Assembly: GCA_024679065.1 (NCBI GenBank)
Contig: JAGIQG010000043.1
Location: 1,426,001 to 1,490,000 of the forward strand
Origin: Sphyrna mokarran
Lineage: Eukaryota
DNA length: 64,000 nt
Direction: 5' to 3'
The notes under the pieces: generated by a model
Seen by the model: only the letters and a program-made list of their open reading frames with translations
Databases searched by the model: none
What the model was told of the DNA's origin: nothing
Part shown: positions 1,814 through 61,008 of the stretch, piece after piece
Layout: the number at the start of each line of letters is the position of its first letter
Position numbering within the stretch: the stretch's first letter is position 1
Position numbers and translations under genes: made by a program

Positions 1814-2113
1814 CTGGCTTACCCAAACCTTCCTTGATTCTGGATCCACATTCCGGAATCTTTCTACCAGGAGAAGATTATTCACTCATCTGCCACTTCC
1901 CCCTCACGCGCTGCAATGTGGAATTGTACAAAGATTTCAAGGTCAGAGTCTTGTCCTTGAATGATGCCAACTACACGGCCATCTTCAGGTTTAGTGCGAT
2001 TTCTTCTTCAAAAGGCCACAACACCTACACCTGCAAATATCAAAAATTCTACGAGAACAATATGACCTGGTCTTACTCACCGATCAGTGAACCGGTACTG
2101 TTCAGCGTGATGG
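1814..2113 (+). CDS. LRC-like receptor: C2-type Ig domain exon A
   Basis: Acceptor ttattctccag, donor ATGG|GTAAGG, 300 nt, phase 1-1. GLPKPSL..SLIC..ELYK..YTCKY..WSYSPISEPVLFSV matches the LILR/KIR/CHIR-type pattern (LPKP start, LYK instead of the C-strand Trp, SxxSxPV end). Confidence 0.88.
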
Positions 2114-2453
2114 GTAAGGCAAATTTACAGATAATCTGATTGCCAAAGCAACATTAAGAATTACTCCATGTAACCTCACAAAAGGCCATTCATCACTTTA
2201 TTCCTGTGTTGACCTCAAAGAACAAAACAGCACAGGAAATCGGCCCTTCAGCCCGATAAGCCCGCGCCGCCACATCGATGTTTCCACTTCTACCCATGAT
2301 CCTTGTCTATGTTTATAGATCTATGCATTGAAACCAAATTTGAGACAATTTAGGGAGAATTTGTTCTGCCACTCAGTGACAGTACTCTCCAATTAAGCTG
2401 AGGCATCAGACTCGTCATTCCTCTTGTCATTTTTTTTTCTATTTTTGCATACT

Positions 2454-5521: not shown

Positions 5522-5814
5522 ATGAACTTCCCATGTCCGCTCTCTCAACAGTGTTAGCCTCCAGTGTGCAAACAGTGGGGGAGCGATTTCACATTAACTG
5601 CACTACCAGTTACCCGAGTTACATATCCTGTTTGTACAAGAAGTGGACGTGCTATTGATACCTACAAAGTCTCAGACCCCTGAGGACCGTCATCTTCACC
5701 ATTCAAGAGCTCGTCCAATGGATGGTGGAGCCTACCGCTGCAGTGTTATGAAAGAGGTGTTAGGGAAAGAATGTGTGTTGCCCTATAGTAACTTCGTGAA
5801 GTTCAATGTCACCA
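5522..5814 (+). pseudogene. Decayed duplicate of Ig exon B (pseudo-exon)
   Basis: ELPMSALSTV..VGERFHINCTTSYPS / AIDTYKVSD / RTVIFTIQEL / DGGAYRC..SNFVKFNVT aligns with exon 12580-12876. It needs about three frameshifts, the acceptor AG is lost (ttacga) and the donor is weakened (GTGAAT). Confidence 0.85.
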
Positions 5815-7694
5815 GTGAATGATATGTCATTTCATTAATCATTGCCCCATTATTCTCGACGGAGTCCAAACTCTCGAGAAGGCATTCTCCACCCTTAAAC
5901 TATTGGTCAAATTTGGACCGTACTTTAACGGTCTTTGTTTTCACCCTGGAGTCATTAACCATTGCGTTTATATATGGGAAATAGGAATCAGGAGTAAGAA
6001 TAGGTCCATTGTTCTCTCAAACGGACACCAACATTGAATGAGAATCTTACTGATTAGTTTGTAAGTTCAACTCTACGGTGGCACAGTGCTCAGTACTTGG
6101 TCCAGTATTAGGGATGGGCCAATGTCTTCGTGGAGTCTGCACGCTGTCCCCCGGATGTTCCAGTTTCCCTTCAAAAAATAGGTGCTAGTACGGTGCATTT
6201 GCTAAATTCTCTTTCAGTGTACCTGAACAGGTGCTAGAGCATGGCGACTGTAGGATTTTCACAGTAATTTTATTCCAGTGCTAATGGAAGTCTACATGTG
6301 ATTCTAATGCTTAAACGTTAAACATAGACCCCTGATTCCCGTTTTCGCCTCTGAATTTTTCACCTCTTTTTCAGAAATGCAACTAGCTCTGCATTGAACA
6401 CGTTAAAAGATTAAATATTTTACTGTACCCTAATTACCGTAAGCACTGCATTTTGAGGAAGAGAGGTATAAAAATTAATAACTCTCTTGAAAGAATGAGT
6501 GTGATGACTCCCATGACTTGCATGCAGAATTGCTAATTAACCTCCCTGTCGGAATCCATACACTTAACTTCCCTGGGATTGGTAACTAACCAACCAGGTG
6601 AAGCTCGTATTCCGAGCTCTGTTTAAAGCAAGAGTTTAGAGGGTCAATTATTGCACCGTCATGGTTGGGATCAGTTGTGTTCACCACGGGATCGTGTAGG
6701 TTTTTTAGGCTTAACGTATCTTGTGCAATAAAAAAAAACACTTTTCGCTAAAGGACGACTCCTGGAGTTAATAAACATCAGCAACAAAAAAAACTTTCTT
6801 TGTCTACAAATGCCCACAGTTTATTTATAATATTCGCCTCCTAGTTCTGCATTTTCCCAGAAGTGGGATCAACCTTTCGACATATACTGAGTCACAAATT
6901 TACAAGATCTAACAGCTATGAATAGTCACGTTTTGGCACATCGTGTGCAATGTTACATCTGTACTTATGCCCTTTAGATCTTATCTCAGTTATGTGAACC
7001 GTTTCAAAGTTTTTTTTTTGAATAGTTATATGCTATACCGGGGTTCAATTCCCGGCTTGAGTCATTACCTGTGTGGTGTTGGCACTATTTCCCCGTGTCT
7101 GTGTGGGTTACCTCCGTATATTCCGGTTGCTTTCCAGGTGTGAAAGATGTGCAGGTTAGGCGTGCTGACCATGTTGAAATGCTCCCTCAGTTTACGAGGA
7201 CAGGTGCTGAATTATGGCGGAATAGATGATTTTCACATTATCTTCATTGTACTGTTAATGTAAGCCTACTTGTAGCACGAATAAAGCAACCTTAAATGTA
7301 CATCATGTGATCGTTCACTACTGTCTTTTGGGAATGAAATCTGTCGTCATTACAAGGACTTCCCTACATATCAGTCCAGTCAACAGAAATGTGACAGACC
7401 CTGAACTTCCCTCAGGCAACTAAGATGGACAATGATTGCTGGCCAGCCTGTGACGTCTATGTCCCATGAACGATGATTAAAAACAATCAGCGGTGAATAA
7501 TTATGTCTACAACGTTGACCAGCAAAGAAATCGCCAGGAGTGCTTCCCGCTCTTGTACTCTCGGCACATTTGCCTCTGAGCAAATACGCATGCCTGGGAA
7601 GAAATGACACAATGCAAGTCTGATTTCAAGTGTTTTGTGTGTGATTCGATGAGTAGACTGAACCTATATTCTCTGGAATTCGAAACCAGGAGAG

Positions 7695-8298: not shown

Positions 8299-9228
8299 AT
8301 TTGGTAATTTCACGCAGGTAATTCAGTGTATTCGTTGTTGATAGTGATCGATGCAGTGAGGCATTTTGCTTCCTTGTCCTCTTTACCTGGGCGATGAGTA
8401 CCCAGCAAAGGGCAGTAGGTGCAAGAGTTCCCAGTCTCAGATTAACTGGACAGTCATTTCGTACTGAGACAAATAGTGTCGATATTCCTCACACCTGCCA
8501 CCTTATTGTTCTGTGCACACTCCCTAGGTAAATTGTCCTTTGCTTCCTGTTTTTAATGATACATTTTAGTAAGAGTTCTCTGTTGCGTATTATTTTCCTT
8601 ATTTATTCATGGGAGATGTATTTCGCTGGCTCACCAAGATTTATTGTCCATCCCCAGCTGTCTTTCAACTGAATGGCTTGCAAAGCAAATTCAGAGGGTA
8701 GTTCAGAGTTAACAATATTGCTGTGGCTTTGGCATCACATGTTGGCCAAATCAGATAAAGAAGGCAGATTTTGTTCCCATAAGGCCATTAGCAAACCAGA
8801 TGTGCTTTTTCAACAACCAACAATGTTCATTCGCAGACTCTTAATTCTAGATATACGTTCATGGAATTCAAATTCCACTATCTGCCGCGTCAGGATTTGA
8901 CCTTGGGCCCCAGAATATTAGTTGAGTTAACGTAGAACATAGAAGACTACAGCACAAACAGGCCATTCGGCCCTCAAGTTGTGCCGATCATATCCAGGCC
9001 ATAGAATTATCTGTAATTCCCAATCACATTAAATCCCATGTATTCATTCAGAAGCCTTAAAAAAAACAGCGAGTTCCCCTCTATTACCACCGATGGCAGC
9101 TGATTCCACTCACTCATCACTCTCTGAGTGAAAACCTTACTCTTAACATTTCCTCTGTACTTGCTCCAAAGCAGCTTAAATCTGTGTCCTCTCGTGGCAA
9201 ACATTTCAACCCTGGGAAATAGCCTCTA

Positions 9229-11577
9229 TAGGCCAACTAGAGGTGAGGCTACATTGGATTTGGTGCTGGGCAATGAGCCAGACCAGGTGTTAGGCTTGGA
9301 AGTTGGTGAACATTTTGGTGATAGTGACCACAATTCGGTTACGTTCACCTTAGTGATGGATAGGTATAGGCATGAAGCTGGGGGCAGTAGTTATAGCTGG
9401 GGGAAGGGTAATTATGAGGCCATCAGGAGAGAATTAGGGTGCATAGATTGGACTAGGAAGCTACAGGGACTGGGAACATCTGGAATGTGGAGCTTATTTA
9501 AGGAGCAGCTGCTGCGGGTCCTTGATAAGTATGTCCCTGTCAGGCAAGGAGGAAATGGTCGAGTAAGAGAACCTTGGTGTACGAAAAAAGTTGATTGGCT
9601 GGTTAAAAGGAAAAAGGAGGCTTATGTCAGGATGAGGCTTGAAGGCTCGGTTAGTGCAATGGATAGCTATAGATTAGCCAGGAGGGAGCGAAAGAGTGAG
9701 TTGAGGAGAGCTAAGAGGGAACACGAGAAGACTTTGGCTGATAGGATTAAGGAGAATCCTAAAGCTTTCTTTAGATATGTTAAGAATAGAAGATTGGTTA
9801 GGGCAAGATTAGGGCCAGTCATAGACAGCAGTGGGAAGTTGTGCGTGGAGCCTGAGGAGATTGGCGAGGTACTGAATAAATATTTCTCTTCGGTATTCAC
9901 GCAGGGTGATGTAAATGTAGTTATGGAGAACACTGAGGTACAGGGTAGCAAACTGGAAGGTATCGAAGTAAATAGGGAGGATGTGCTAGATATTCTCGAG
10001 GGTTTGAAGTTGGATAAGTCCCCTGGGCCGGACGGGATTTACCCTAGGATTCTCTGGGAGGCAAGAGAGGAGATTGCAGAGCCTCTGGCTCTGATCTTCA
10101 GGTCGTCGTTGGGTACGGGTGTGGTTCCGGAGGACTGGAGGATAGCGAATGTGGTCCCATTGTTCAAGAAGGGGAAGAGAGACCTTCCAGGGAATTATAG
10201 GCCAGTGAGTCTTACTTCTGTTGTGGACAAAGTATTGGAGAGAATTATTAGGGATAGGATTTATAGTTATTTCGAGAGAAATGAATTGATTGGGGATAGT
10301 CAGCATGGTTTTGTGAAGGGTAGGTCGTGCCTTACTAACCTCATTGAGTTTTTTGAAAAAGTGACTAAGGAGGTGGATGGGGTAAGGCGGTTGATGTGGT
10401 ATATATGGACTTTAGTAAGGCGTTTGATAAAGTGGCCCATGGAAGACTTCTGCAGAAAATGCAGATATATGGGATAGAAGGTGATTTAGCTAATTGGGTT
10501 AGGAATTGGCTAGCAGATAGAAGACAGAGGGTGGTGGTTGATGGGAGATATTCATCTTGGAGTTCGGTGACAAGTGGTGTACCTCAGGGGTCTGTTTTGG
10601 GGCCCCTGCTGTTTTGTAATTTTTATAAATGATCTGGATGAGGGTATTGAAGGATGGATTAGTAAATTTGCAGATGACACTAAAGTCGGTGGAGTGGTAC
10701 ATAGTGAAGAGGGGTGTTATAGTTTGCAGAGGGACTTGGACAAGTTGCAGAGCTGGGCCGAGAGGTGGCAAATGGAGTTTAAATGTGGAAAAGTGTGAGG
10801 TAATGCACTATGGCAGAAATAATAAATGTGTAGAGTATAGGGCAAATTGTAGGATTCTTAGTAGTCTAGATGAACAGAGGGATCTTGGTGTGTATGTGCA
10901 TAGATCCCTGAAAGTAGGCAGTCAGGTCGAGAAGGTTGTTAGGAAGGCATATGGAGTCTTGGCTTTTATTGGTAGAGGGATTGAATTTCGGAGCCCCAAC
11001 GTCATGTTGCAACTGTACAAAACTCTAGTGCGGCCGCACTTGGATTATTGTGTGCAGTTCTGGTCCCCACATTATAAGAAAGATGTGGAGGCATTGGAGA
11101 GGGTACAGAGGAGGTTTACCAGGATGTTGCCTGGTATGGAGGGCAGGTCTTATGAGAAGAGGCTGAGGGATTTGAGGTTGTTTTCGTTAGAAAGAAGGCG
11201 GCTAAGAGGAGACCTTATTGAAACATATAAGATTATTAGAGGTTTAGATAGGGTGGACAGTGATAGCCTTTTTCCTAGGATGGAGAAAGCTAGCACGAGG
11301 GGGCAGAGCTTTAAATTCAGGGGTGATTGTTATAGGACGGATATCAGAGGCAGGTTCTTTACCCAAAGGGTGGTTCGCGAGTGGAATGCCCTTCTTGCAG
11401 CAGTTGTAGATGCGCCAAGTTTGGTGGCGTTTAAGAGGTTAGTTGATAAGTATATGGAAGAGAAGGGAATGGTTTAGTTTGGAGGGGCATTGCTTTTTAT
11501 ATTGGTCGGCGCAACATCGAAGGCCAAAGGGCCTGTTCTGTGCTGTAATGTTCTATGTTCTATGTTCTATGTTCTAT
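9229..11577 (+). mobile_element. CR1 LINE subfamily A, longest copy (end of endonuclease region plus RT), frameshifted; nested in a - strand subfamily C copy (~8930-9228 and ~11578-11815)
   Basis: ORF2 motifs TLDLVL, SDH, KSPGPDG, NYRPVSLT, DFSKAFD, GVPQGSVLGP and FADD. The host element resumes on both sides. Confidence 0.95.
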
Positions 11578-12579: not shown

Positions 12580-12876
12580 ATGAGCTGCCAAAACCCACCA
12601 TCTCTATCGTGCCAGCGTCTGGTGTGTTGTCAGTGGGGGAGAAAGTCTACATTAACTGTACCAGCAACTACCCAAGCGACGTTGCCCACTTATATCAGGA
12701 TCAAGGGCCTGCCATCTACACCCGTAACATGTCAGACACTGAGAGGACAGTCATATTTACTATCAAAGAGCTGGCACCAAATGATGGAGGAGCCTTCAGT
12801 TGCACCTTTTTGAAAACTGTAAAAGGGAAGAAATATGAGTCGCCCCATAGTAACATTGTGACCTTCAACGTCACCG
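12580..12876 (+). CDS. LRC-like receptor: C2-type Ig domain exon B
   Basis: Acceptor cactcattccag, donor ACCG|GTGAGT, 297 nt, phase 1-1. Translation ELPKPTISIVP..VYINC..HLYQ..DGGAFSC..ESPHSNIVTFNVT. Confidence 0.9.
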
Positions 12877-16340: not shown

Positions 16341-17426
16341 AATCTAATATTAGAGGGAATAGTTTTAAGGCGAGAGGGAAGCGATACAAAACTATCCAAA
16401 GAGGCACCTGTTTCACAAAGAGGATGGTGCTATCTGGAACAAGCTACCAATGACAGTAGTAGAAGCGGGTACTATATTGTTTAAAGACATTAGACATTTA
16501 CATGGATAAGGTGGATAAAGAGGGATACGCGCCAAGTTCAGGCAGTTGGGACTAGCTTCGGGTTGAAAAAGAAAGGGTGGTATGGATAAATTGGACCAAA
16601 GTGCCTGTTTCCATGCCTAAACATCTATATTTCTATGAACGAATAAATATAATCAATTGATAGTGTTAGCCTAAGTCCCCAGGCTAATATCTCAGTTTCA
16701 AAAACAGTGATTCTCACATAAGATTGGAATGGACATCACTTCCTGTGCTTCAAGGCCTGCTGTGTTTTCCTACCATAGTTTGTTTCTTTTTTTTTGTTAT
16801 GTTTTTATGTTGCCATTTCTGCATTACTCCTCTTCAGAATTTGAATTATCACAAGTTTCCCATGTTAGAACATAGAACATAGAACAATACAGCGCAGAAC
16901 AGGTCCTTCGGCCTTCGATGTTGCGCCGACCAATTAAGAAAAAGCAATGACCCTCTAACCTAAACCATTCTTTACATAAACTTTACAAAATGGGCCTTTT
17001 GTATTTCAGCATCAATGGCCAAAAGCAGGATTTGACCCAAAGTGGGGTAAAGGAGGCAATTAAACCTCATGATCCTATTTTCCAGGCAGAACATCGAAGG
17101 CTGAAGGGCCTGTTCGGCGCTGTATTGTTCTATGTTCTATGTTCTGATGATTCTCATATGGCCCGACCAACTCACAGAACCAGGGGTAATACATATGTAC
17201 CATCTCTCTTTAATATTTTTGCACCAGTATTAGTGATTCTTTTTTTATGCCACCAGGAATTGAACAGTTTTATCATATCGTATTCGAATGGATTATATCA
17301 TCAGTTCTTACGTTGACTGGCGTACATAAGACTTAAACGTCATAACAATGTGTATGATTCACAACTGCCTGCTCCACCTTTCCTATCACTCTGAACATAC
17401 CACTCAGTTGAAGAGCAAGTGGGGTT

Positions 17427-18584
17427 ATAGAACATAGAACATAGAACATTACAGCACAGAACAGGCCCTTCAGCCTTCGATGTTGCGCCGACCAATATAA
17501 AAAGCAATGCCCCTCCAAACTGAACCATTCCCTTCTCTTCCATATACTTATCAACTAACCTCTTAAACGCCACCAAACTTGGCGCATCTACAACTGCTGC
17601 AGGCAGGGCATTCCACTCCCGAACCACCCTTTGGGTAAAGAACCTACCTCTGATATCCGTCCTATAACTCATACCCCTTAATTTAAAGCTGTGTCCCCTC
17701 GTGCTAGCTTGCTCCATCCTAGGAAAAAGGCTATCACTGTCCACCCTATCTAAACCTCTAATCATCTTATATGTTTCGAGTAGGTCCCCTCTTAGCCGCC
17801 TCCTTTCTAACGAAAACAACCTCAAATCCCTCAGCCTCTCTTCATAAGACCTGCCCTCCATACCAGGCAACATCCTGGTAAACCTCCTCTGTACCCTCTC
17901 CAATGCCTCCACATCTTTCTTATAATGTGGGGACCAGAACTGCACACAATACTCCAAGTGCGGCCGCACTAGAGTTTTGTACAGTTGCAACATGATGTTG
18001 CGGCTCCTAAATTCAATCCCCCTACCAATAAAAGCTAAGACTCCATATGCCTTCTTAACAACTTTATCGACTTGACTGCCTACTTTCAGGGATCTATTGA
18101 CACATACACCAAGATCCTTCTGTTCATCAACACTATTAAGAGTCCTACCATTAGCCCTATACTCTACACATTTATTGTTCCTGCCAAAGTGCATTACCTC
18201 ACACTTTCCACATTAAACTCCATTTGCCACCTCTCGGCCCAGCTCTGCAACTTGTCCAAGTCCCTCTGCAAACTATAACACCCCTCTTCACTATCTACCA
18301 CTCCACCGACTTTAGTGTCATCTGCAAATTTACTAATCCACCCTTCAATACCCTCATCCAGATCATTTATAAAAATTACAAACAGCAGGGGCCCCAAAAC
18401 AGATCCCTGAAGTACACCACTTGTCACCGAACTCCACGATGAATATCTCCCATCAGCCACCACCCTCTGTCTTCTTTCTGCTAGCCAATTCCTAACCCAA
18501 TTAGCTAAATCACCCTCTATCCCATACATCTGCATTTTCTGCAGAAGTCTTCCATGGGCCACCTTATCAAACGCCTTACTAAAG
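17427..18584 (-). mobile_element. CR1 LINE subfamily A, 5'-truncated RT
   Basis: KAFDK, QGSVLGP, FADD and the ORF2 C-terminus, plus a tail. Confidence 0.92.
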
Positions 18585-20356
18585 TAAGGTTAGACAATAA
18601 ATACTGGTTGGCCAGCGACTTGTATGTCCCATGAATGAACAAGTAATCCATACCCAGTACACCCCTCGTTCTAGACTATCTAGCAGGGTGTGGTTGGTTA
18701 CAGACGTTAGCTAACCTGGAGGCGTTGAATCCTCAGAACCTACACGACCAATACAACTAAACGATTAATCTTTGGATAATAAGGGCTAATCAGCCGATTT
18801 CACATGGCTAATCAGCCGAAAGTACACATCATTGGGTGCTAATGATAATTTAGCATGGCTAATGTATGTAACCCGCACATTTTTGGACTATAGAAGGAGG
18901 GATAAAACCCACACAGACACGTGGAGAACGTGCAGTCACCCAAGCCAGGAATCACACCACGGTCCTTGGAGCTGTGAGGCATTGTGCAGCTGTGCCACAC
19001 TTTGTGTGGATATGAGGCAAAACCATACGTTTCACTATATGTCAGTACATATAACATAACAAATCAAAATGTTGCGTGACGTAGTTACATAATATTGCAG
19101 CATAGTGAACCCAACGAGATAATCAACAGTCTGGGAGAGTTTTAAATCCCGATAATAATCCTACATAATACAAATTGACAGAATATGCAGGGGTTTAAAA
19201 CAGTGTCACCTATTCCACTGCTTAATAGTGGCTCCTGTATGTTCTCATAATATCTGAAATGAAATGTCTGAAGGCAGCAGGGAAGAAGAGTCGACTCTCA
19301 GACGTTTGTACCTTTCTTCCAAAAGAAGGAGTTGGATGGGGTTGCAGGAGGGGCAGCACGGTGACTTTCCCTGGTGCCTCACAAGGCCAGGGGTAGAGTT
19401 CAATTCCTAGTGCAGAGTTGTCACTTTTTTCCCCATAATCGTGTGAGTTTCCTCCAGGTGCACTGGTGTGTTCCCACATTCCAAAAGACGAGATTGTTGG
19501 GTGTACAAGCCATACTAAATTCTCCCTCAACGTACTCGAACAGGAGTCAGTTGGACTGTGTCGACAAAGAGATTTCCACACTTCAAAGTAGTGCTTATAT
19601 AAGCCGATTAATAAAATAACTTTAAACTTGGAAGAAAACATTTCTGGGGTGCCTGATATCCTTGATTATGCTGGATCCTTTTCTGAGGCAGCAGGAAGTA
19701 TATTTGGACTGGGCTACGTTCACAACCCTTTGTTTTTTTTGGGGCCATTTACAGAGCAGATATCATACTAAGCTGTGGTACATTTAGAAAGGGTGTTTAC
19801 ATGGTGGATCTGTAAAAATTGATTGAAGTCATCAATGACATGCTGAGTTTTCCTAGCCAACTGAGAAAGTAGAGGCAATTCATCCTGAACAATCGCATTG
19901 ATTCTCTCCATGGAGTCCAAGATTATGGAGTAATTGGGCCACATTCTACTATACTGTTGGACACAGGAAGTGCAGTCGCGAGACATGGCCTATGGATAGG
20001 TCCGGTGACCTTGGACGGGATTTTCTGGTTTTGCAGTGAGCGCAGCTGGGTAAAGTCATTCCTAAAGTTCATGCATCAAATGTCTTTAGTGTACAGATCT
20101 TTCGACACAAAAGACGAGTTTAGCCCCTAAGCCACCTAACCTGCACGACACAGATTTGGGGAGAACGTACAAACTCCACACAGTCATCCAAAGCAGGAAG
20201 TGAACACAGATCCCAGGTGCTTTCAGGCTGTAGTGCTAACCGTTCATAACAGAACTAGAGGACACCGCCTCAAAATACAGGGGAGGGGGCGGCCGTTTAG
20301 AACGGAGTTAAGGAGGAACTTCTTCACTCAAATCTCTGGAATTCTCTGCCCATTGA

Positions 20357-24630: not shown

Positions 24631-24930
24631 AGGTGCTCCCACGTGCATCGATTTCCGTGGAACCACATACTGGTGTGGTGACTAAAGGGAAGCCCATACG
24701 ACTTACCTGTACAGGTGCCATTCTGCCTTCGGGTGGTCGCTTTTACTTCTACCGTGACGGTGAAAAGAAAGGAACTCTTGATGTATCTGGCGCAGTCCAT
24801 GCGGCGTCCTTCATCGTCAATGACATGGTGTTTGCTGGGTCATGGAATTACACCTGCGGTTATGCGCGAATTGTAAAGCACATCGCCTATCACTCACCCC
24901 GCAGCACTGCGGTGTATGTGACTGTGACAG
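24631..24930 (+). CDS. LRC-like receptor: C2-type Ig domain exon C
   Basis: Acceptor gtttaatttcag, donor ACAG|GTCAGT, 300 nt, phase 1-1. Translation VLPRASISVEP..IRLTC..FYFYRDG..NYTCGY..HSPRSTAVYVTVT. Confidence 0.9.
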
Positions 24931-26224
24931 GTCAGTGACATTTAATCACGATCTGAGGCATCACCCAAGAACACAGTGTCAGTTAACACATTAACAGCAT
25001 GGAAAAGAGGGCCATTCAGTCCCAGTTATCAGAGATGGTCCATTACGCCACATCACACTCCCGCCAAATTCCAACAATCTTGATCCATTTTGTTTCTAGA
25101 AAGTTAACTTCTCTCGCGTCTGGCGTGTACACAAATATGAGGTTACGTGCATTGTAAATTGGGAACGCAAAAGATCTTGGGAGTCCGAGTTTAGGATTCT
25201 CTTAAAGTTGACTTGCAGGTTTTTAATCATAGAATCCTACAGTGGCCATTCGACTAATTAAGCCTGCATCATTCAGAGTCCCAACCAGGCTCTATCTCTA
25301 TAACTTCATGCCTTCACCTAAGGGCACACTTAGTACAGCCAATCCATCCAATCCACACATCTTTACACTATCGGAGGAAAACTGAGCACCCAGAGGAAAT
25401 CCATACAGACATGGAGAGAACGTGGAAACTCCAGACAGACAGTGATCCAACCCAATAATTGAACCTGAGTCCCTGGCGTCGTGATGCAGTAGTGCAAACC
25501 ACTGCACTATCCCATACTCACCCCGTCCCCACCGCCAAGATTGAGTTGGTTGCTAGGATTGCAAATGAAATATTAACAATAATTTTGAGAGGACAAGGGT
25601 ACAAAAGAAGTGATGCACTTTTGAGGCTTTGTAAGGTTGTGGTCAGGCAAGATTTGGAAAATTGCGAGCAATTTTGGACCCCATACCAGAGATAGATTAT
25701 GCTTGCTTTTGGAGACGGTCCAGAAGTGGTTCACGAGAATGGTCGCGGGAAGAAAAGCTTGTTAGATGAGGGGTGTCTGAGAGTCTGGAAAGGGTCCTGA
25801 GGGAAAGGATTTATGACCATTTGGAACGATGCAGCTTAATCCGGGATAGTCAACACTGTTTCATGAGAGGTAAGTCTTGTTTCACAAATTTGATTGAGTA
25901 TTTGAGGAGGTAACTACGTGTGTAGACGAAGGTGGGCCGCTGATGTCGTGTAGGTGGGTTTTAGTAAGATATTTGATAAGGTTTCCGATGGTAGACTCAT
26001 GAGGAAAGTAAGGAGGTATGGGATAGAAGGAAATTTGGCCCATTGGATAAGTAACTGGATGCCTCATGGCAGACAGAGGGTGGTGGTCCAGGGAAAGTTT
26101 TCAGGCTGGTGGCCAGTTACCAGTTGTGTACCACACCAATCAGTGCTAGGTCCTCTGCTATTTGTGATTTTTATCAATGACTTGGAAGAGGGGAGCTCAG
26201 TAAATGTATAATCATGGAGTAGAA

Positions 26225-48570: not shown

Positions 48571-49082
48571 GAGATGTATCGCAGGCATCAGTAACAGCAA
48601 ATAAAAGCTCGGGATATGATCACCTCTGCAGATTTCATATTCATGTACCCGTAATTCCCAGCTAATTCTTAAATTGCCTAGTCACTTCTTAACCTCACTT
48701 CCAACGCAGATTCACTCTACAATATCCTTGTTAGTCAGCTGAATGGACCACCCTAAACACATTTGGATTGATCCTTTAAAGAAACTTTAATTATACAGCT
48801 TACGTTGCTTTTCAAACTCTGTTTTAGTATATCCCATTATGCTTTGCTCACATAATGTATAAAATGCAGCATGGAACTAAAGACGTCGATGGAGGAAATT
48901 AGAAACCTGAAAAAGGCTCAAGTTGAACCACAAGCGTTATTTAATTGTAGAATAGTTGTCATTAGGAAAATTAAAATAGTGACACCACTGTAAAACTTGA
49001 GCCATAAATCTGTCTGAAGCTGGACATATACATATATATATATATGTGGTATATGTTCAGAACTTCTCTCTTTCCGCTCCAG

Positions 49083-49127
49083 TTAGAGTGTTGGATCCGC
49101 GTTAAAGGCCAGGCGAGCATAAAGCGT
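49083..49127 (-). CDS. VJ-C1 receptor exon 6: terminal cytoplasmic exon TLYARLAFNADPTL* (ITIM/ITSM-like)
   Basis: Acceptor tactttttatccacag, phase 0 matching exon 5. Encodes a TxYxxL motif then TAA. ATTAAA poly(A)-type hexamers lie downstream on the - strand (48940-48945, 48786-48791). Confidence 0.78.
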   Translation of the reverse strand, partial: TLYARLAFNADPTL

Positions 49128-49599
49128 CTGTGGATAAAAAGTAAGTTATTAATGCAATCCACACCAATATGGACGATAGATAAGGCCATTGATCCCATGT
49201 ACTCCAGAAAAAAAAAGACATTCAAGTCTGCACCGACTCCCTGACAGACAATCAGCCATGCTGTATTGTCCTTTAGAGTCTCAAGACGCGTAGGCTGGAG
49301 AGTTAACGCATGGGATTACGAGAATAGGTTCTCGATACAATGTCAGTGCAGAGTTGATGATCTGAATGCAGAGATTGCATGCGTCATGTGTCACTATCTA
49401 ACAATATGTAGGTTAGATGGATTAAGCATGACACAATGTCATGTAGAGTCCAAAGATCGGGGGTTTGGTCATGCTAAATCACCTCTTAGTATCCAAAGAT
49501 ATGTAATTTAGGTTGATGGACCATGCTAAATTCCTCTTAACATCCAAGGATCTTTAAGCCCTTGCACCTCGCTGTACTTGTGATCCCACGTTTGTTTGT

Positions 49600-50175
49600 T
49601 ATAGCTAACCCATCTAACCTATGCATTTTTGCACACTAAAGGGTAATTTGACAGGGCTCATCCATCTTACATACACATCTTTGCATATTAAGGAGAAATT
49701 TAGCAAGGCTAATCCATCTAATCTACAGATATATGCACTCCAAGCGCAATTTAGTGCGGCTAATTGACAACATTTACTAAGTTTTCGACATTCAACAGTA
49801 ATTTAACATGGCCATTGCTCCCATCTTTGGATACTATGGGAGAATTTGTAATTGAAAATCCATCTACTGCACACGTGTTTGTACACCAAAGGGCTAAACT
49901 ATTTAAGCTAAACGTCTGTGGGCTCCAAGTGGCAATTTAGAATGTCTAGTCCACCTAATTTACAAAGTTTGAACAATAGAGTCAATTTAAGACGGCTAAG
50001 CCATCTAACCTACACATAAATTGGACTCTAATAGGTCATTTAGCATGGTCAATCCACGTAACATGCACATCTTTTGACATTAAGACATAATTTAGACGCG
50101 AATCCCCACATCCATTGACACAAAGGGAAATTTTGACATGACAAATCCAGTTAATCTACATACCTTTGGACTGCG
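49600..50175 (-). repeat. Tandem ~50-bp SINE-derived array in the last intron of the VJ-C1 gene
   Basis: Same unit as 47410-47800, about 11 degenerate copies. Confidence 0.75.
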
Positions 50176-52157
50176 ACTTATGACACATCCAATTTCGACA
50201 TTCGACGCACTGAGTCTGCGCTACCTTTCCGAAAGAGCATTATGCTGAGATCCTATCCTTGTAAAGCCACATGTGAAATTCTCTAATCCCCCTAATCTGC
50301 ACATTTTGAGATGCTAACGGGAACTTTAGCATGGCTGATCCACCTAACATACAAATTTCTGTACTGTGACGGAAAACCAGAAAACTCAGATGAAACTCAT
50401 GTAGGCGCAGGGGGAACGAGGAAATCACATTACTAGTCATCTAAGGCCAACATTGAACGCGTTCCTTGGAGCATTGAGGCGGTAGTGCTAACCACTGTGC
50501 CACCGTCCTCCAAACTTAATCATGGCTAAAGGCACAATATCGCACATACCCTCTTTGTTCCTTCAAACCTTAATTCATTCCTTAAGAAAAACTATTCACA
50601 TCAGTTCCAATTGATCATTACTGTATATGTTTTTTTTTGTTGGAGATTTTTCCAGAATTCCATTCTTCTTAGTATAAAGAAGTGCTTCCTCAGTCACCTC
50701 TGAGAAAGGTTTTTATTTTCATGCTCTGCTTCCTTGTCTGCGATTTCCCCACTGGAAGAGAGCACACAGCTTTTCTCTCCCTGTCCTATCGAATTGTGTA
50801 ACCATCAAAAGCGTCATAATGTGTTGACTGTTAAAACTTCTAATCGAGAAGTTGCACAAACCTAGTTTGTACGATGTTGTAGTGAGAATTATGCAAAGCT
50901 TTCTCGACAAATATTTTCAACCAGCTCTGAAGAGGACTTTTACATATGGACTGGTCCAAAGAAAATAAAAGCGCCAGATAGAATATAACTCTGAAAATTG
51001 TCAGGTGATGCACTTTGGAAGCAGTAATTTAACAAGGAAATGCTCGATGAACGGGATAACAGTAGGAACAAAAGACTTGTTAGTTCACCGACTGGCACGG
51101 TGGCCCAGTGTTTAGCACTGCTGCCTCACAGTACCAGAGATTCGTGTTCAATTCCTGGCTTGGGTCGCTTTCTGTGCAGAGCTTGTGCGTTCTCCCCGTG
51201 TAGGTTTCCTCCAGGTGTTCCAGTTTCCTCCCATGGCACAAAGATAGATTAGGTGCACTGACAATGCTAAATTGTGCCTTGATGTTCTGGGGTGCGTAGG
51301 TTACCATAGAAATCATAGAATCATAGAACCTACAGTGCAGAAAGAGGCCATTTGGTCCATCGAGTCTGCAGCGACTATAATCCCACCAATTCCTTAGCTC
51401 CATACCCCTACATATTTATCGACTAATCCCTCTAACCTACATATATCAGAACATGAAGGGGCAATAGAGGATTAGCGGGTAAATGTGTAGGTTACGGGCT
51501 GAGTTGGGATTGATGACGCTGCAGACTCGATGGGCCCAATGGCCCCAATCTGCATTGTAGGCTTCTAAGATCTCTGAAGTCTGAAGGGTATATTAGTAAA
51601 GTGGTGAAAAAGGCATATGGGGCATATATCATTTTTTTTTAAGTCGAGTCTCAGATTACAAAAACTGCGAGGTCATGTTGGAGCTCTATGCAACTTTGGT
51701 AAGTTCACTGTTAGAGTACCGTGTGCAGTTTCGATTGCCACGTTATAGGCGGGATGCGATTGCAGTGGAGGGGGTGCAAAGGAGATTCACTCGGATGCTG
51801 CCGAGGATGGAAACATTAAGTAATGAAGAATAGTTGGGTTGGCTTGTGTTGTTTTCATTGGAGCAGAGAAGACTAAGGGTGACCTGATTGATGTGTACGG
51901 GATTATGAGGGACATGAATAAAATACATTATTATTGAACAGCTTTCCCCTTAGTTGAAAGGTCAGTCACAAAGCGGCATATGTGTGATTCTATTATTCTA
52001 TAAGACTCGACTTATTTTTCGTCCCTTTACAGATGTTGCTAGATCTGCTGATATTTTCATCATTTCCTCTTCGTATCATAAATTACAAATCTTGGATTAA
52101 TGTTTTCTGAAAAAAAAACATCCGTTTGTAACGGCAGTAATAACTCCATTCATTTAC

Positions 52158-52216
52158 CTCTTCGTGCTCTTTGTCTTCTCTGCAATCCGTCACTTCCTTG
52201 CCACTGCTCGCCGTGC
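52158..52216 (-). CDS. VJ-C1 receptor exon 5: cytoplasmic (GTASSGKEVTDCREDKEHEE)
   Basis: Acceptor cctttttctaacag, donor GAG|GTAAAT, 59 nt, phase 1-0, open frame, 134 bp downstream of the TM exon. Confidence 0.8.
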
Positions 52217-52350
52217 CTGTTAGAAAAAGGAATTTAAGTTGAGTCTAGATGACTATACTTCACCCTAACCTGCTCAAGACGTCCATAAAAACGTCCACAA
52301 TGGATGAATGGAGAGCACGAAAAGTCAAAGCATCCCCCGATTACCGTTAC

Positions 52351-52470
52351 CTCTCTGCCGGTTGCTGAAGCCTCTTCTCCCGACCACAAGGCCCAATCCC
52401 AGGAGGAGAATTGCCACGAGTGACAAAGTCCCGGAAAACAGGAAAGTGCAGTTGGTCAGGTGCAAAGAAT
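52351..52470 (-). CDS. VJ-C1 receptor exon 4: short stalk plus transmembrane segment (DSLHLTNCTFLFSGTLSLVAILLLGLGLVVGRRGFSNRQR)
   Basis: Acceptor ttttttctatttgcag, donor AGAG|GTAACG, 120 nt, phase 1-1. It encodes a ~22-aa hydrophobic run followed by a basic stop-transfer RR. Not present in the ORF track in this frame. Confidence 0.88.
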
Positions 52471-55803: not shown

Positions 55804-57503
55804 TGAACAAATATTTCTCTTCGGTATTCACGCAGGGAGATGTAAATTTAGTTGTGGAGAACACTGGGATACAGGGTTGCAAACTGGAAAGTATTGAAGT
55901 AGATAAGGAGGATGTGCTAGATATTCTTGAGGGTTTGAAGTTAGTTAAGTCCCCTGGGCCGGACGGGATTTACCCTAGGATTCTCTGGGAGGCGAGAGAG
56001 GAGATTGCAGAGCTCTGGCTCTGATCTTCAGGTCGTCGTTGGTTACGGGTATAGTGCCGGAAGACTGGAGGATAGCGAATGTGGTCCCATTGTTCAAGAA
56101 GGGGAAGAGAGATTTTCCGGGGAATTATAGGCCGGTGAGTCTTACTTCTGTTGTGGGCAAAGTATTGGAGAGAATTATTAGGGATAGGATTTATAGTTAT
56201 TTAGAGAGAAATGAATTGATTGGGGATAGTCAGCATGGTTTTGTGAAGGGTAGGTCGTGCCTTACTAACCTCATTGAGTTTTTTGAAAAAAGTGACCAAA
56301 GAGGTGGATGGGGGTAAGGCAGTTGATGTGGTATATATGGACTTTAGTAAGGCGTTCGATAAGGTGGCCCATGGAAGGCTTCTGCAGAAAATGCAGATGT
56401 ATGGGATTGAGGGTGATTTAGCTAATTGGATTAGGAATTGGCTAGCAGATAGAAGACAGAGGGTGGTGGTTGATGGGAGATATTCATCGTGGAGTTCGGT
56501 GACAAGTGGTGTACCTCAGGGGTCTGTTTTGGGGCCCCTGCTGTTTGTAATTTTTTATAAATGATCTGGATGAGGGTATTGAAGGATGGATTAGTAAATT
56601 TGCAGATGACACTAAAGTCGGTGGAGTGGTAGATAGTGAAGAGGGGTGTTATAGTTTGCAGAGAGACTTGGACAAGTTGCAGAGCTGGGCCGGGAGGTGG
56701 CAAATGGAGTTTAATGTGGAAAAGTGTGAGGTAATTCACTTTGGCAGGAATAACAAATGTGTAGAGTATAGGGCTAATGTTAGGACTCTTAATAGTGTTG
56801 ATGAACAGAGGGATCTTGGTGTATGTGTGCATAGATCCCTGAAAGTTGGCAATCAAGTCGATAAGGTTGTTAAGAAGGCATATGGAGTCTTAGCTTTTAT
56901 TGGTAGGGGGATTGAATTTCGGAGCCCCAACGTCATGTTGCAACTGTACAAAATTCTAGTGCGGCCGCACTTGGAGTATTGTGTACAGTTCAGGTCCTCG
57001 CATTATAAGAAAGATGTGGAGGCATTGGAGAGGGTACAGAGGAGGTTTACCAGGATGTTGCCTGGTATGGAAGGCAGGTCTTATGAAGAGATGCTGAGGG
57101 ATTTGAGGTTGTTTTCGTTAGAAAGAAGGCGGCTAAGAGGAGACCTTATTGAAACATATAAGATGATTAGAAGTTTAGATAGGGTGGACAGTGATAGCCT
57201 TTTTCCTAGGATGGAGAAAGCTAGGACGAGGGGACATAGCTTTAAATTAAGGGGTGGTGGTTTTAGGACAGATGTCAGAGGTAGGTTCTATACCCAGAGG
57301 GTGATAAGGGTATGGAATGCCTTGCCTGCGTCAGTTGTAGATGCGCCAAGTTTGGTGGCGTTTGAGAGATTAGTAAATAAGTTTATGGATGAAAAGGGAA
57401 TGGTTTAGGTTAGAGGGTCACTGCTTGTCCCTAATTGGTCGGCGCAACATCGAAGGCCGAAGGGCCTGTTCTACGCTGTAATGTTCTATGTTCTATATTC
57501 TAT
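55804..57503 (+). mobile_element. CR1 LINE subfamily A-related copy, antisense in intron 3 of the VJ-C1 gene
   Basis: KSPGPDG, NYRPVSLT, DFSKAFDK, FADD and ..DEKGMV*, with frameshifts and a tail. Confidence 0.93.
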
Positions 57504-57624: not shown

Positions 57625-57930
57625 CTCCTTGAGATGAGACGCTTTCACTCAGAAGATGATCACCGGAGTTGAATTGAACGGTGCAAGTACAGCGAGCCCC
57701 GCTGCTCCAGGTTTCCGCCGAGATGCTGATGTAACTCCTGATGGTGTACGTCCCGTCCGGTTCTACTGTCCCGAAATCTGTCTGACAATCGGTATCCGAC
57801 TTGGCAACGTTCCAGCGGACAGAAAAGGAATCGGGAGACACAGCTCTGACCAAACACAACAATGGAATCCTTTCCATGGCGGGAATCTCATCCAAATGCG
57901 GAGTGAGGAGGAAGATGATGGGAGGACCCG
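57625..57930 (-). CDS. VJ-C1 receptor exon 3: C1-set Ig constant domain
   Basis: Acceptor gatttag, donor GGAG|GTAGAG, 306 nt, phase 1-1. The translation GPPIIFLLTP..LLCLV..VRW..EPDGTYTIRSYISI..ETWSSG..CTCTV matches C1-set motifs of Ig/TCR/MHC (PxVxxLxP, LxCLV, DGTY, xWxxG). Confidence 0.92.
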
Positions 57931-58108: not shown

Positions 58109-58447
58109 CTGTGATCACTAACTTGGATCCGTTTCCGAATATCAATGCTGTCATGACGTCATTGCGCATTGCACAGTAGTACATTCCAGAATCGTTTCTC
58201 TGGGCATCCGCAATGATCAGTGAATAATTGTCCTCTTTCTCAGAAATCTCACTGGAAAACCTCCCCTTCGCTGGGAGGTGCTTGCTGGTGGTGTAAACCA
58301 GACTCATGTCACTGAGCCCTGTCTTTCTGTACCACGATACGAAACCAGTCCCTAAGACTGAGATGTGACAGGTGAGTGTGACACGACTCCCCACTGGGAG
58401 TGTCTGAACCGGCGGAGACTGGGACATGATGGACTGAGACACTGAAG
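58109..58447 (-). CDS. VJ-C1 receptor exon 2: V-set Ig domain with germline-contiguous J-like segment
   Basis: Acceptor ctctctttcccag, donor ACAG|GTGCAT, 339 nt, phase 1-1. V hallmarks are VTLTC, VSWYR, GRFS and SLII..DSGMYYC, followed by the J motif FGNGSKLVIT in the same exon. Confidence 0.93.
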
Positions 58448-60965: not shown

Positions 60966-61008
60966 CCTGGAGGAGAAGGAACAACGCACAAATGTCAAGG
61001 AAGCCCAT
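60966..61008 (-). CDS. VJ-C1 receptor exon 1: signal peptide MGFLDICALFLLLQ (phase-1 end)
   Basis: On the - strand, ACAATGG (good Kozak context) is followed by a 14-codon hydrophobic leader and the donor CAGG|GTGAGA. It joins in frame to the V exon, giving ...LLLQ-ASVSQSIMSQSP. Confidence 0.85.

What the first reader, a model, noticed from the sequence alone, without database searches (positions are those of the whole stretch)
49083..52470. TCR-like ectodomain coupled to an uncharged TM and a TxYxxL (ITSM/ITIM-like) tail
Seen: the TM FLFSGTLSLVAILLLGLGLVVG has no Lys, Arg or Asp and contains a GxGxxxG pattern. A Cys sits just before the membrane (TNC), and the ~43-aa tail ends EHEE-TLYARL. 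Known: TCR chains have basic TM residues for CD3 and tiny tails. TxYxx(V/I) is the SAP/SHP-2-binding ITSM of SLAM receptors and PD-1, and (I/V/L/S)xYxxL is the ITIM. Inference: this is a disulfide-linked dimer that signals autonomously, probably as an inhibitor, like an NK-type receptor built from antigen-receptor domains.
Basis: partly seen in the sequence, partly recalled or inferred. Interest (0 to 1): 0.75.

Follow-up and report, generated by a model that had tools for sequence, protein, structure and literature searches.

The report
Shark non-rearranging TCR-shaped inhibitory receptor
This intact six-exon shark gene spells a T-cell-receptor-shaped surface protein whose variable part is already joined in the germline and whose tail tyrosine motif is kept in relatives from rays to turtles and alligators, so it is likely an immune 'off-switch' receptor of an old, little-studied family (probably the one called PRARP in chickens).

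Summary
The three flagged exons (TM 52470-52351, tail 52216-52158 and 49127-49083, minus strand) end a 303-aa leader-VJ-C1-TM-tail gene reaching 61008; V and J are one exon with no RSS nearby. It aligns gap-free at 65% to a Mustelus RefSeq model. The TM is uncharged. The stalk Cys is in 30 of 30 and the Tyr in 29 of 30 chosen full-length relatives; GxGxxxG is in 0 of 30, and the tail runs 8 residues past the motif. The family spans sharks, rays, lungfish, reptiles and birds, with more distant teleost relatives. It is multicopy, most variable in the CDR loops, and includes a few Arg-TM, Tyr-less forms. A second subfamily (B) appears on the same contigs in two sharks and a turtle and has Pro where this type has Leu/Met at the V-V interface, which suggests heterodimers. 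LILR/KIR-type exons lie 24 kb away. Best reading: a disulfide-linked, SHP-recruiting inhibitory receptor, probably the shark PRARP/VJC1 orthologue (papers not held, membership untested). Expression, dimer, ligand and SH2 binding are not shown.

The parts
60966..61008 (-). Leader exon (split leader, phase-1 donor GTGAGA)
   Evidence: Top hydrophobic ATG...GT candidate; tblastn hit to the N-terminus of P0007, E 0.007
58109..58447 (-). Single germline-joined V-J exon (Cys41, Trp53, Cys106, FGNG J motif)
   Evidence: Pfam V-set E 1e-15; best PDB matches Ig light-chain and TCR V domains; no RSS-like site in or near the gene
57625..57930 (-). C1-set domain exon
   Evidence: Pfam C1-set E 6.9e-09; 74% identical to the Mustelus orthologue's C1
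52351..52470 (-). Stalk with Cys237, uncharged TM, basic stop-transfer residues
   Evidence: Cys in 30 of 30 aligned relatives
52158..52216 (-). First cytoplasmic exon (59 nt, phase 1-0); skipping it would shift the last exon out of the Tyr frame
   Evidence: orthologue isoforms of that shape P0005, P0019, P0030
49083..49127 (-). Last coding exon: T-L-Y-A-R-L-A-F motif, 6 more residues, TAA; AATAAA/ATTAAA sites follow at 48945 and 48791
   Evidence: motif in 22 of 23 elasmobranch type-A models
24632..24933 (+). Neighbouring LRC-type Ig exon (separate gene, 24 kb from the stop codon)
   Evidence: All 7 PDB matches are LILRB1/LILRB2, best E 5.4e-06
12581..12876 (+). Neighbouring LRC-type Ig exon
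   Evidence: Best PDB matches PIR-B E 1.3e-08, LILRA2, LILRB4, OSCAR; Atlas look-alikes A1BG, IGSF1, KIR3DX1, LILRA6
1815..2116 (+). Neighbouring LRC-type Ig exon
   Evidence: Best PDB matches CHIR-AB1 E 4.3e-06, OSCAR, KIR3DL1

Best explanation
The window holds an intact shark gene for a leader-VJ-C1-TM-tail protein with a germline-joined V-J exon, an uncharged TM and one conserved T-x-Y-A-x-L motif, which likely works as a disulfide-linked inhibitory leukocyte receptor and is probably the shark orthologue of the PRARP/VJC1 genes. Shown: gene anatomy, conservation of the stalk Cys and the Tyr motif, multicopy relatives with variable CDR loops. Inferred: two chains pair through V-V and C1-C1 faces and the stalk Cys, as a homodimer or with a linked type-B chain; the V domains bind a cell-surface or pathogen ligand; a Src-family kinase phosphorylates the Tyr; the dimer's two phosphotyrosines engage the tandem SH2 domains of SHP-2/SHP-1 and damp activating signals; isoforms that skip the middle tail exon or the TM, and Arg-TM paralogues, would tune or reverse the output.
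For: Six exons with GT-AG sites and matching phases, 303 aa, gap-free at 65% to XP_078095901.1. Cys237 30 of 30, Tyr 29 of 30, Thr at -2 25 of 30, Leu/Val at +3 29 of 30 in alignment A4 (rows chosen by me among full-length hits). Among the 89 further hits, 66 have a TM; of these 64 have a Cys at the stalk/TM start, 56 a Tyr motif, 48 Thr at -2, none Lys/Arg in the TM core; many turtle and both TM-plus-motif Alligator sinensis rows read TEYAAV, a canonical ITSM. Motif entropy 0.2 bits against 1.0-1.5 in the CDRs over 11 shark sequences. Type A (sharks, rays, lungfish, turtles, alligator, lizards, crane) is one branch at 97/92. Phe at pY+5, present here, helps SHP-2 binding, and SHP-2 can bridge two single motifs on two chains (PMC12151841, passages). 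LILR/KIR-type exons lie 24 kb away. Recalled, not read: chicken PRARP1/2 are VJ-joined, carry an ITIM/ITSM and form disulfide-linked homo- or heterodimers.
Against: No transcript was seen for this locus. One motif per chain, matching neither consensus strictly. Leu at pY-1, unlike PD-1's Glu, is the feature that lets CD150 bind SAP (PMC12151841 section 21), so the motif could switch to activation. A glycan sequon overlaps the stalk Cys in this copy. No hit is named PRARP or VJC1 and the defining papers are not held, so orthology is not tested; PRARP is cited as lying in the MHC (PMC10751288), whereas the neighbours here are LRC-type.
Confidence: 0.62

Rival explanations
1. The protein is one chain of an obligate A/B heterodimer, a germline-encoded TCR-like receptor: many A and B paralogues would combine to give a repertoire, and the partner (Tyr tail or Arg TM) would set the sign of the signal, so this chain would not signal alone.
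For: Type A and type B models share a contig length in Heterodontus (22,062,530), Cetorhinus (7,994,003) and Chelydra (3,188,970). At V-domain Trp+9, type A has Leu/Met in 28 of 30 and Pro in 0 of 30; type B has Pro in 8 of 12, as do the light-chain rows checked; this mirrors the recalled VH-Leu45/VL-Pro44 asymmetry. Type B rows with a TM also carry a stalk Cys. P0066 (type B) has a TM Arg and no Tyr.
Against: No type-B exon lies in this 64-kb window. Type B is only 77/91 in the tree. Linkage rests on equal contig lengths, not coordinates. Rays have type B with Leu at Trp+9.
Confidence: 0.3
2. The motif is a SLAM-type switch: it would bind SAP/EAT-2 and co-activate in lymphocytes that have the adaptor, and inhibit through SHP-2 only in cells that lack it.
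For: Thr at -2 and a hydrophobic residue at -1 (Leu 14, Ile 4, Met 1, Val 1 of 30) resemble CD150 T-I-Y-x-x-V/I, whose SAP binding needs the hydrophobic -1 residue (PMC12151841).
Against: Leu at +3 departs from the ITSM consensus; reptile orthologues have Glu or Asp at -1 like PD-1; only one motif.
Confidence: 0.15
3. The tail is a YxxL endocytosis signal and the protein is an uptake, adhesion or decoy receptor rather than a phosphatase recruiter.
For: YARL fits the recalled YxxPhi sorting consensus; orthologue models include Tyr-less and TM-less isoforms (P0005, P0028, P0030, P0032); the related non-rearranging UrIg genes are not lymphocyte receptors (PMC12227049).
Against: Thr at -2 and Ala at +1 (29 of 30) are conserved from sharks to reptiles, which YxxPhi does not need; multicopy CDR variability and Arg-TM relatives fit paired immune receptors.
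Confidence: 0.1
4. It is a pseudogene or a fixed germline-joined copy of an Ig light chain or TCR chain with no separate function.
For: Sharks have germline-joined light-chain clusters (PMC12227049); best solved-structure matches are light chains; a tree forcing shark type A with the 5 Ig/TCR rows is not rejected (p-AU 0.0875).
Against: Intact frame with five introns; TM and signalling tail that light chains lack; no TM basic residue; orthologues with the same layout from rays to alligators; the 50 family rows separate from the 5 Ig/TCR rows at 92/85.
Confidence: 0.04

Closest known systems
PRARP1/PRARP2 (Fu et al. 2019) and Xenopus VJC1 genes (Ohta et al. 2019); neither paper held, content recalled; PRARP seen only as citations in PMC10751288 and PMC11599192
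   Same: Single-exon VJ, C1, TM, one ITIM/ITSM-type motif, stalk Cys, two linked subfamilies, range over birds, reptiles and bony fish (range here).
   Different: As recalled, cartilaginous fish were not in the reported range; here multicopy in sharks, next to LRC-type exons rather than shown MHC markers, with Arg-TM relatives.
TCR alpha/beta/gamma/delta chains
   Same: Split leader, VJ, C1, stalk Cys, TM; FGxG J motif.
   Different: V and J fused, no RSS, no TM Lys/Arg, 43-aa tail with its own Tyr motif.
UrIg and UrIg2 (PMC12227049, parts 1-4 of 8 read)
   Same: Elasmobranch, non-rearranging single-exon VJ, split leader, C1 domains, disulfide-linked dimer.
   Different: UrIg is secreted VJ-C1x3, UrIg2 has nine or more C1 domains; both liver/gill; this gene has one C1, a Tyr-motif tail and many paralogues.
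NITRs of ray-finned fish (bioRxiv 10.1101/2021.06.11.448072, passages)
   Same: Single-exon V-J, clustered multigene family, predicted NK-type receptors.
   Different: NITR's second domain is an I domain with six Cys and a J-like end; here it is a C1-set domain with four Cys and no J motif.
SIRP family (features recalled)
   Same: VJ-type V plus C1 domains, paired inhibitory and activating forms; SIRP clusters appear among Atlas look-alikes at 0.94-0.96.
   Different: One C1, not two; one Tyr motif, not four; stalk Cys; nearest Atlas clusters (0.98) are V-C1 proteins of about 290 aa.

Membership tests
PRARP/VJC1 (features recalled) | V and J in one exon, no RSS | tested here: met
   Exon 58447-58109; the 4 RSS-like sites of the window all lie at 41.2-41.4 kb
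PRARP/VJC1 (features recalled) | V-C1-TM layout with one cytoplasmic ITIM/ITSM-type motif | tested here: met
PRARP/VJC1 (features recalled) | Orthologues in birds, reptiles and bony fish; two subfamilies | tested here: met
   Crane, alligator, turtles, lizards, lungfish on one branch with shark type A at 97/92; type B in sharks, ray and turtle at 77/91; teleost rows on a separate branch
PRARP/VJC1 (features recalled) | Groups with the named chicken PRARP1/2 or Xenopus VJC1 sequences | not testable with these tools
   No hit bears these names; papers not held
PRARP/VJC1 (features recalled) | Location in the MHC or an MHC-paralogous region | tested here: inconclusive
   No genome held; neighbours in the window are LRC-type Ig exons
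PRARP/VJC1 (features recalled) | Disulfide-linked homo- or heterodimer | not testable with these tools
T-cell receptor chain | Separate V and J segments with RSS | tested here: not met
T-cell receptor chain | Basic TM residue(s) for CD3 and a very short tail | tested here: not met
   No K/R in the TM; 43-aa tail
NITR | Membrane-proximal I domain with six conserved Cys and J-like end | tested here: not met
   Second domain is Pfam C1-set with Cys 153, 176, 208, 210 and no J motif
UrIg/UrIg2 | Three or more C1 domains | tested here: not met
   One C1 exon between V and TM; orthologues of 303 aa
SIRP (features recalled) | V-C1-C1 ectodomain and two ITIM/ITSM pairs | tested here: not met
   One C1 and one Tyr in the tail; no SIRP row was in the tree
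ITIM consensus (S/I/V/L)xYxx(I/V/L) | Hydrophobic or Ser at -2 | tested here: not met
   Thr at -2; two elasmobranch relatives have S-V-Y-A-x-L
ITSM consensus TxYxx(V/I) | Thr at -2 and Val/Ile at +3 | tested here: not met
   Thr present, Leu at +3; turtle and alligator orthologues with TEYAAV meet it fully

The most novel reading that the evidence does not exclude
Sharks keep a germline-encoded, TCR-shaped heterodimer system: dozens of type A (VH/V-beta-like, Leu/Met at the interface) and type B (VL/V-alpha-like, Pro) VJ-C1 chains pair combinatorially, signal through their own Tyr tails or an Arg-TM partner, sit inside the leukocyte receptor complex, and are the closest living sister of the two-chain receptor that the RAG transposon split, linking KIR/LILR-type innate receptors to the origin of the TCR.
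Probability: 0.15. Interest if true: 0.88.

Novelty: new member of a known kind. Interest (0 to 1): 0.52.

Why it matters
Non-rearranging VJ-C1 genes are the sought relatives of the gene that RAG invaded. The published shark candidates, UrIg and UrIg2, are multi-C1 and not lymphocyte-type. This family has exactly the TCR chain layout, occurs in sharks as many CDR-variable copies that databases label as Ig chains, has two complementary subfamilies, and lies next to LILR/KIR-type exons. If it pairs and inhibits as inferred, it gives sharks a missing NK/myeloid paired-receptor family and a testable model of a pre-RAG two-chain receptor.

Tried and rejected
No genome is held for the window, so synteny beyond 64 kb and copy number in this species were not measured. 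No RNA holder was listed; this is no evidence on expression. The complex predictor was not available, so there is no verdict on pairing. The first V-only tree lost 20 of 67 rows to a pattern filter and was unresolved at depth; it only places the window's V with Mustelus, Cetorhinus and Scyliorhinus sequences at 100/99. An AU test did not reject shark type A grouping with the Ig/TCR rows (p 0.0875). The AlphaFold model of orthologue P0011 (mean pLDDT 72.9) and Foldseek gave only Ig light chains, as any V-C1 would. GxGxxxG as a dimer motif was rejected (0 of 30). NITR, UrIg, SIRP and TCR membership were rejected on anatomy. Ten literature searches listed no paper describing this family in sharks; several were swamped by unrelated words, and Ohta 2019, Fu 2019, Flajnik 2023 and Dornburg and Yoder 2022 are not held, so it may be in print there or in supplements, none of which I opened. 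Look-ups of earlier findings by place and by sequence gave nothing.

Full report
Setting. The window is shark-like DNA rich in LINE reverse-transcriptase fragments and microsatellites; the nearest named proteins are from Mustelus, Cetorhinus, Carcharodon and Scyliorhinus. No whole genome is held.

Observation. They belong to three exons, 52470-52351, 52216-52158 and 49127-49083, with AG/GT ends and matching phases. The TM has no charged residue and the tail is 43 aa. The tail continues 8 residues past TLYARL. The TM exon is the only TM-exon candidate among 712 pyrimidine-rich acceptors of the window; a Tyr motif follows 12 of these 712, so the motif needed outside support.

The whole gene. Upstream lie a C1 exon (57930-57625; Pfam C1-set E 6.9e-09), one exon holding V and J together (58447-58109; V-set E 1e-15, FGNG) and a split-leader exon (61008-60966). 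Spliced, they give 303 aa that align without a gap to Mustelus XP_078095901.1 at 197 of 303; tblastn with that protein and its paralogue finds all six exons in order and no second copy in the window. The 4 RSS-like sites of the window lie at 41.2-41.4 kb, none in the gene. Solved-structure matches are Ig and TCR domains; a model of the orthologue folds as V plus C1 plus TM helix and matches light chains. No transcript was seen.

Relatives. Searches returned database models labelled as Ig or TCR chains from Mustelus (3), Cetorhinus, Heterodontus (8 distinct type-A models on a 22.06-Mb contig), two Scyliorhinus species, Carcharodon, Rhincodon, Pristiophorus, Pristis, Hypanus and Leucoraja, then lungfish, many turtles, alligators, lizards, two birds and, more distantly, teleosts. 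The only mammalian row among the 116 hits is a horse protein that I read as a TCR gamma chain. In a 30-row alignment of full-length type-A proteins, which I chose and which leaves out Tyr-less isoforms and TM-less fragments, the stalk Cys is in 30 rows, the Tyr in 29, Thr at -2 in 25, Leu or Val at +3 in 29, and GxGxxxG in none. In the unselected 89 new hits, 66 have a TM, 64 of these a Cys at the stalk or TM start, 56 a Tyr motif and 48 Thr at -2; 23 have no TM. Of 23 elasmobranch models taken one per locus, 22 carry Y-A-x-L. Over 11 shark sequences, variability is highest in CDR1 and CDR2 (1.48 and 1.46 bits), lower in frameworks and C1 (0.4-0.8) and lowest in the motif (0.2).

Tree. On V+C1 of 55 rows (the window itself represented by its orthologue P0011), shark type A (100/99) joins lungfish, reptile and bird rows at 97/92; a second subfamily, type B, is one branch at only 77/91; the 50 family rows stand apart from 5 Ig/TCR rows at 92/85. 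The outgroup is thin, its labels are partly my reading, it lacks SIRP, NITR and UrIg, and forcing shark type A with the Ig/TCR rows is not rejected (p-AU 0.0875). So the family is old, but its place relative to rearranging receptors is open.

Pairing. Types A and B share contig lengths in Heterodontus, Cetorhinus and Chelydra, which I read as linkage. Nine residues after the V-domain Trp, type A has Leu or Met in 28 of 30 rows (Met in the window) and never Pro, type B has Pro in 8 of 12. From recall, this is the position where VL and V-alpha have Pro and VH and V-beta have Leu. That suggests A/B heterodimers but does not show them; no complex could be modelled.

Signalling. PMC12151841 (passages and section 21 read) gives ITIM as (S/I/V/L)xYxx(I/V/L) and ITSM as TxYxx(V/I). 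TLYARL is a hybrid; turtle and alligator orthologues have the canonical TEYAAV and two elasmobranchs S-V-Y-A-x-L. The same paper notes that Phe at +5 aids SHP-2 binding (present here, and in 14 of 30 rows), that SHP-2 can bridge one motif on each of two chains, and that a hydrophobic -1 residue allows SAP binding (Leu here). I therefore infer SHP recruitment by a dimer, with a SAP switch as a rival. Skipping the 59-nt tail exon would read the last exon in a Tyr-less frame, and orthologue models of that shape exist (P0005, P0019, P0030), as do TM-less ones (P0028, P0032); whether reads support them I could not see. Relatives with an Arg near the TM start and no Tyr tail include P0061 and P0155 (lungfish), P0066 (Heterodontus type B) and P0019: candidates for activating forms, few and unverified.

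Neighbourhood. Three intact plus-strand Ig exons (1815-2116, 12581-12876, 24632-24933) match CHIR, OSCAR, KIR, PIR-B and LILR best, the Atlas gives A1BG, IGSF1, KIR3DX1 and LILRA6 for one of them, and a frameshifted copy lies at about 5524-5816. The gene thus sits beside LRC-type receptors. E-values are modest (1e-8 to 5e-6) and no flanking marker was seen.

What is known. The anatomy fails TCR, NITR (bioRxiv 10.1101/2021.06.11.448072, passages), UrIg/UrIg2 (PMC12227049, parts 1-4 of 8) and SIRP (recalled). It matches what I recall of chicken PRARP1/2 and Xenopus VJC1 genes, and the species range fits; I saw PRARP only as citations in PMC10751288 (passages and section 13) and PMC11599192 (passages). 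I put the family name at about 70%. Ten searches listed no description in sharks, but the key papers and all supplements were out of view. Earlier AI notes on this genome describe the same cluster; I used them as leads only.

Verdict. It is a new member of a probably known kind, one of many copies. Interest 0.52, higher if A/B pairing and the LRC location hold.

Noticed in passing
window 1815-2116, 12581-12876, 24632-24933 (+): Three intact LILR/KIR/CHIR-type Ig exons; no TM exon for them passed my scan of the window, so the gene or genes may be secreted, like A1BG, or incomplete.
   Followed up: partly
window 5524-5816 (+): Frameshifted copy of the 12581 exon, 68% identical at DNA level over 263 bases.
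   Followed up: partly
window 52456-52445 (-): N-C-T sequon overlaps the stalk Cys; a Cetorhinus paralogue (P0003) has N-C-S at the same place, most relatives do not.
   Followed up: no
proteins P0066, P0084, P0092, P0158, P0263: Type-B V domains often carry an extra Cys pair in the C'-D region.
   Followed up: partly
proteins P0034-P0036, P0042 and other long hits: Many multi-domain proteins of 600-2500 aa with repeated V/C1 matches to this family's profile; they may be fused gene models of tandem clusters.
   Followed up: no
proteins P0260 (crane) and P0275 (rail): Bird members of type A; the crane model has no Tyr motif in its predicted tail.
   Followed up: no
window 9128-11477, 17340-18589, 55979-57408 and others: Numerous LINE reverse-transcriptase fragments, including some inside the gene's introns; family not checked.
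   Followed up: no
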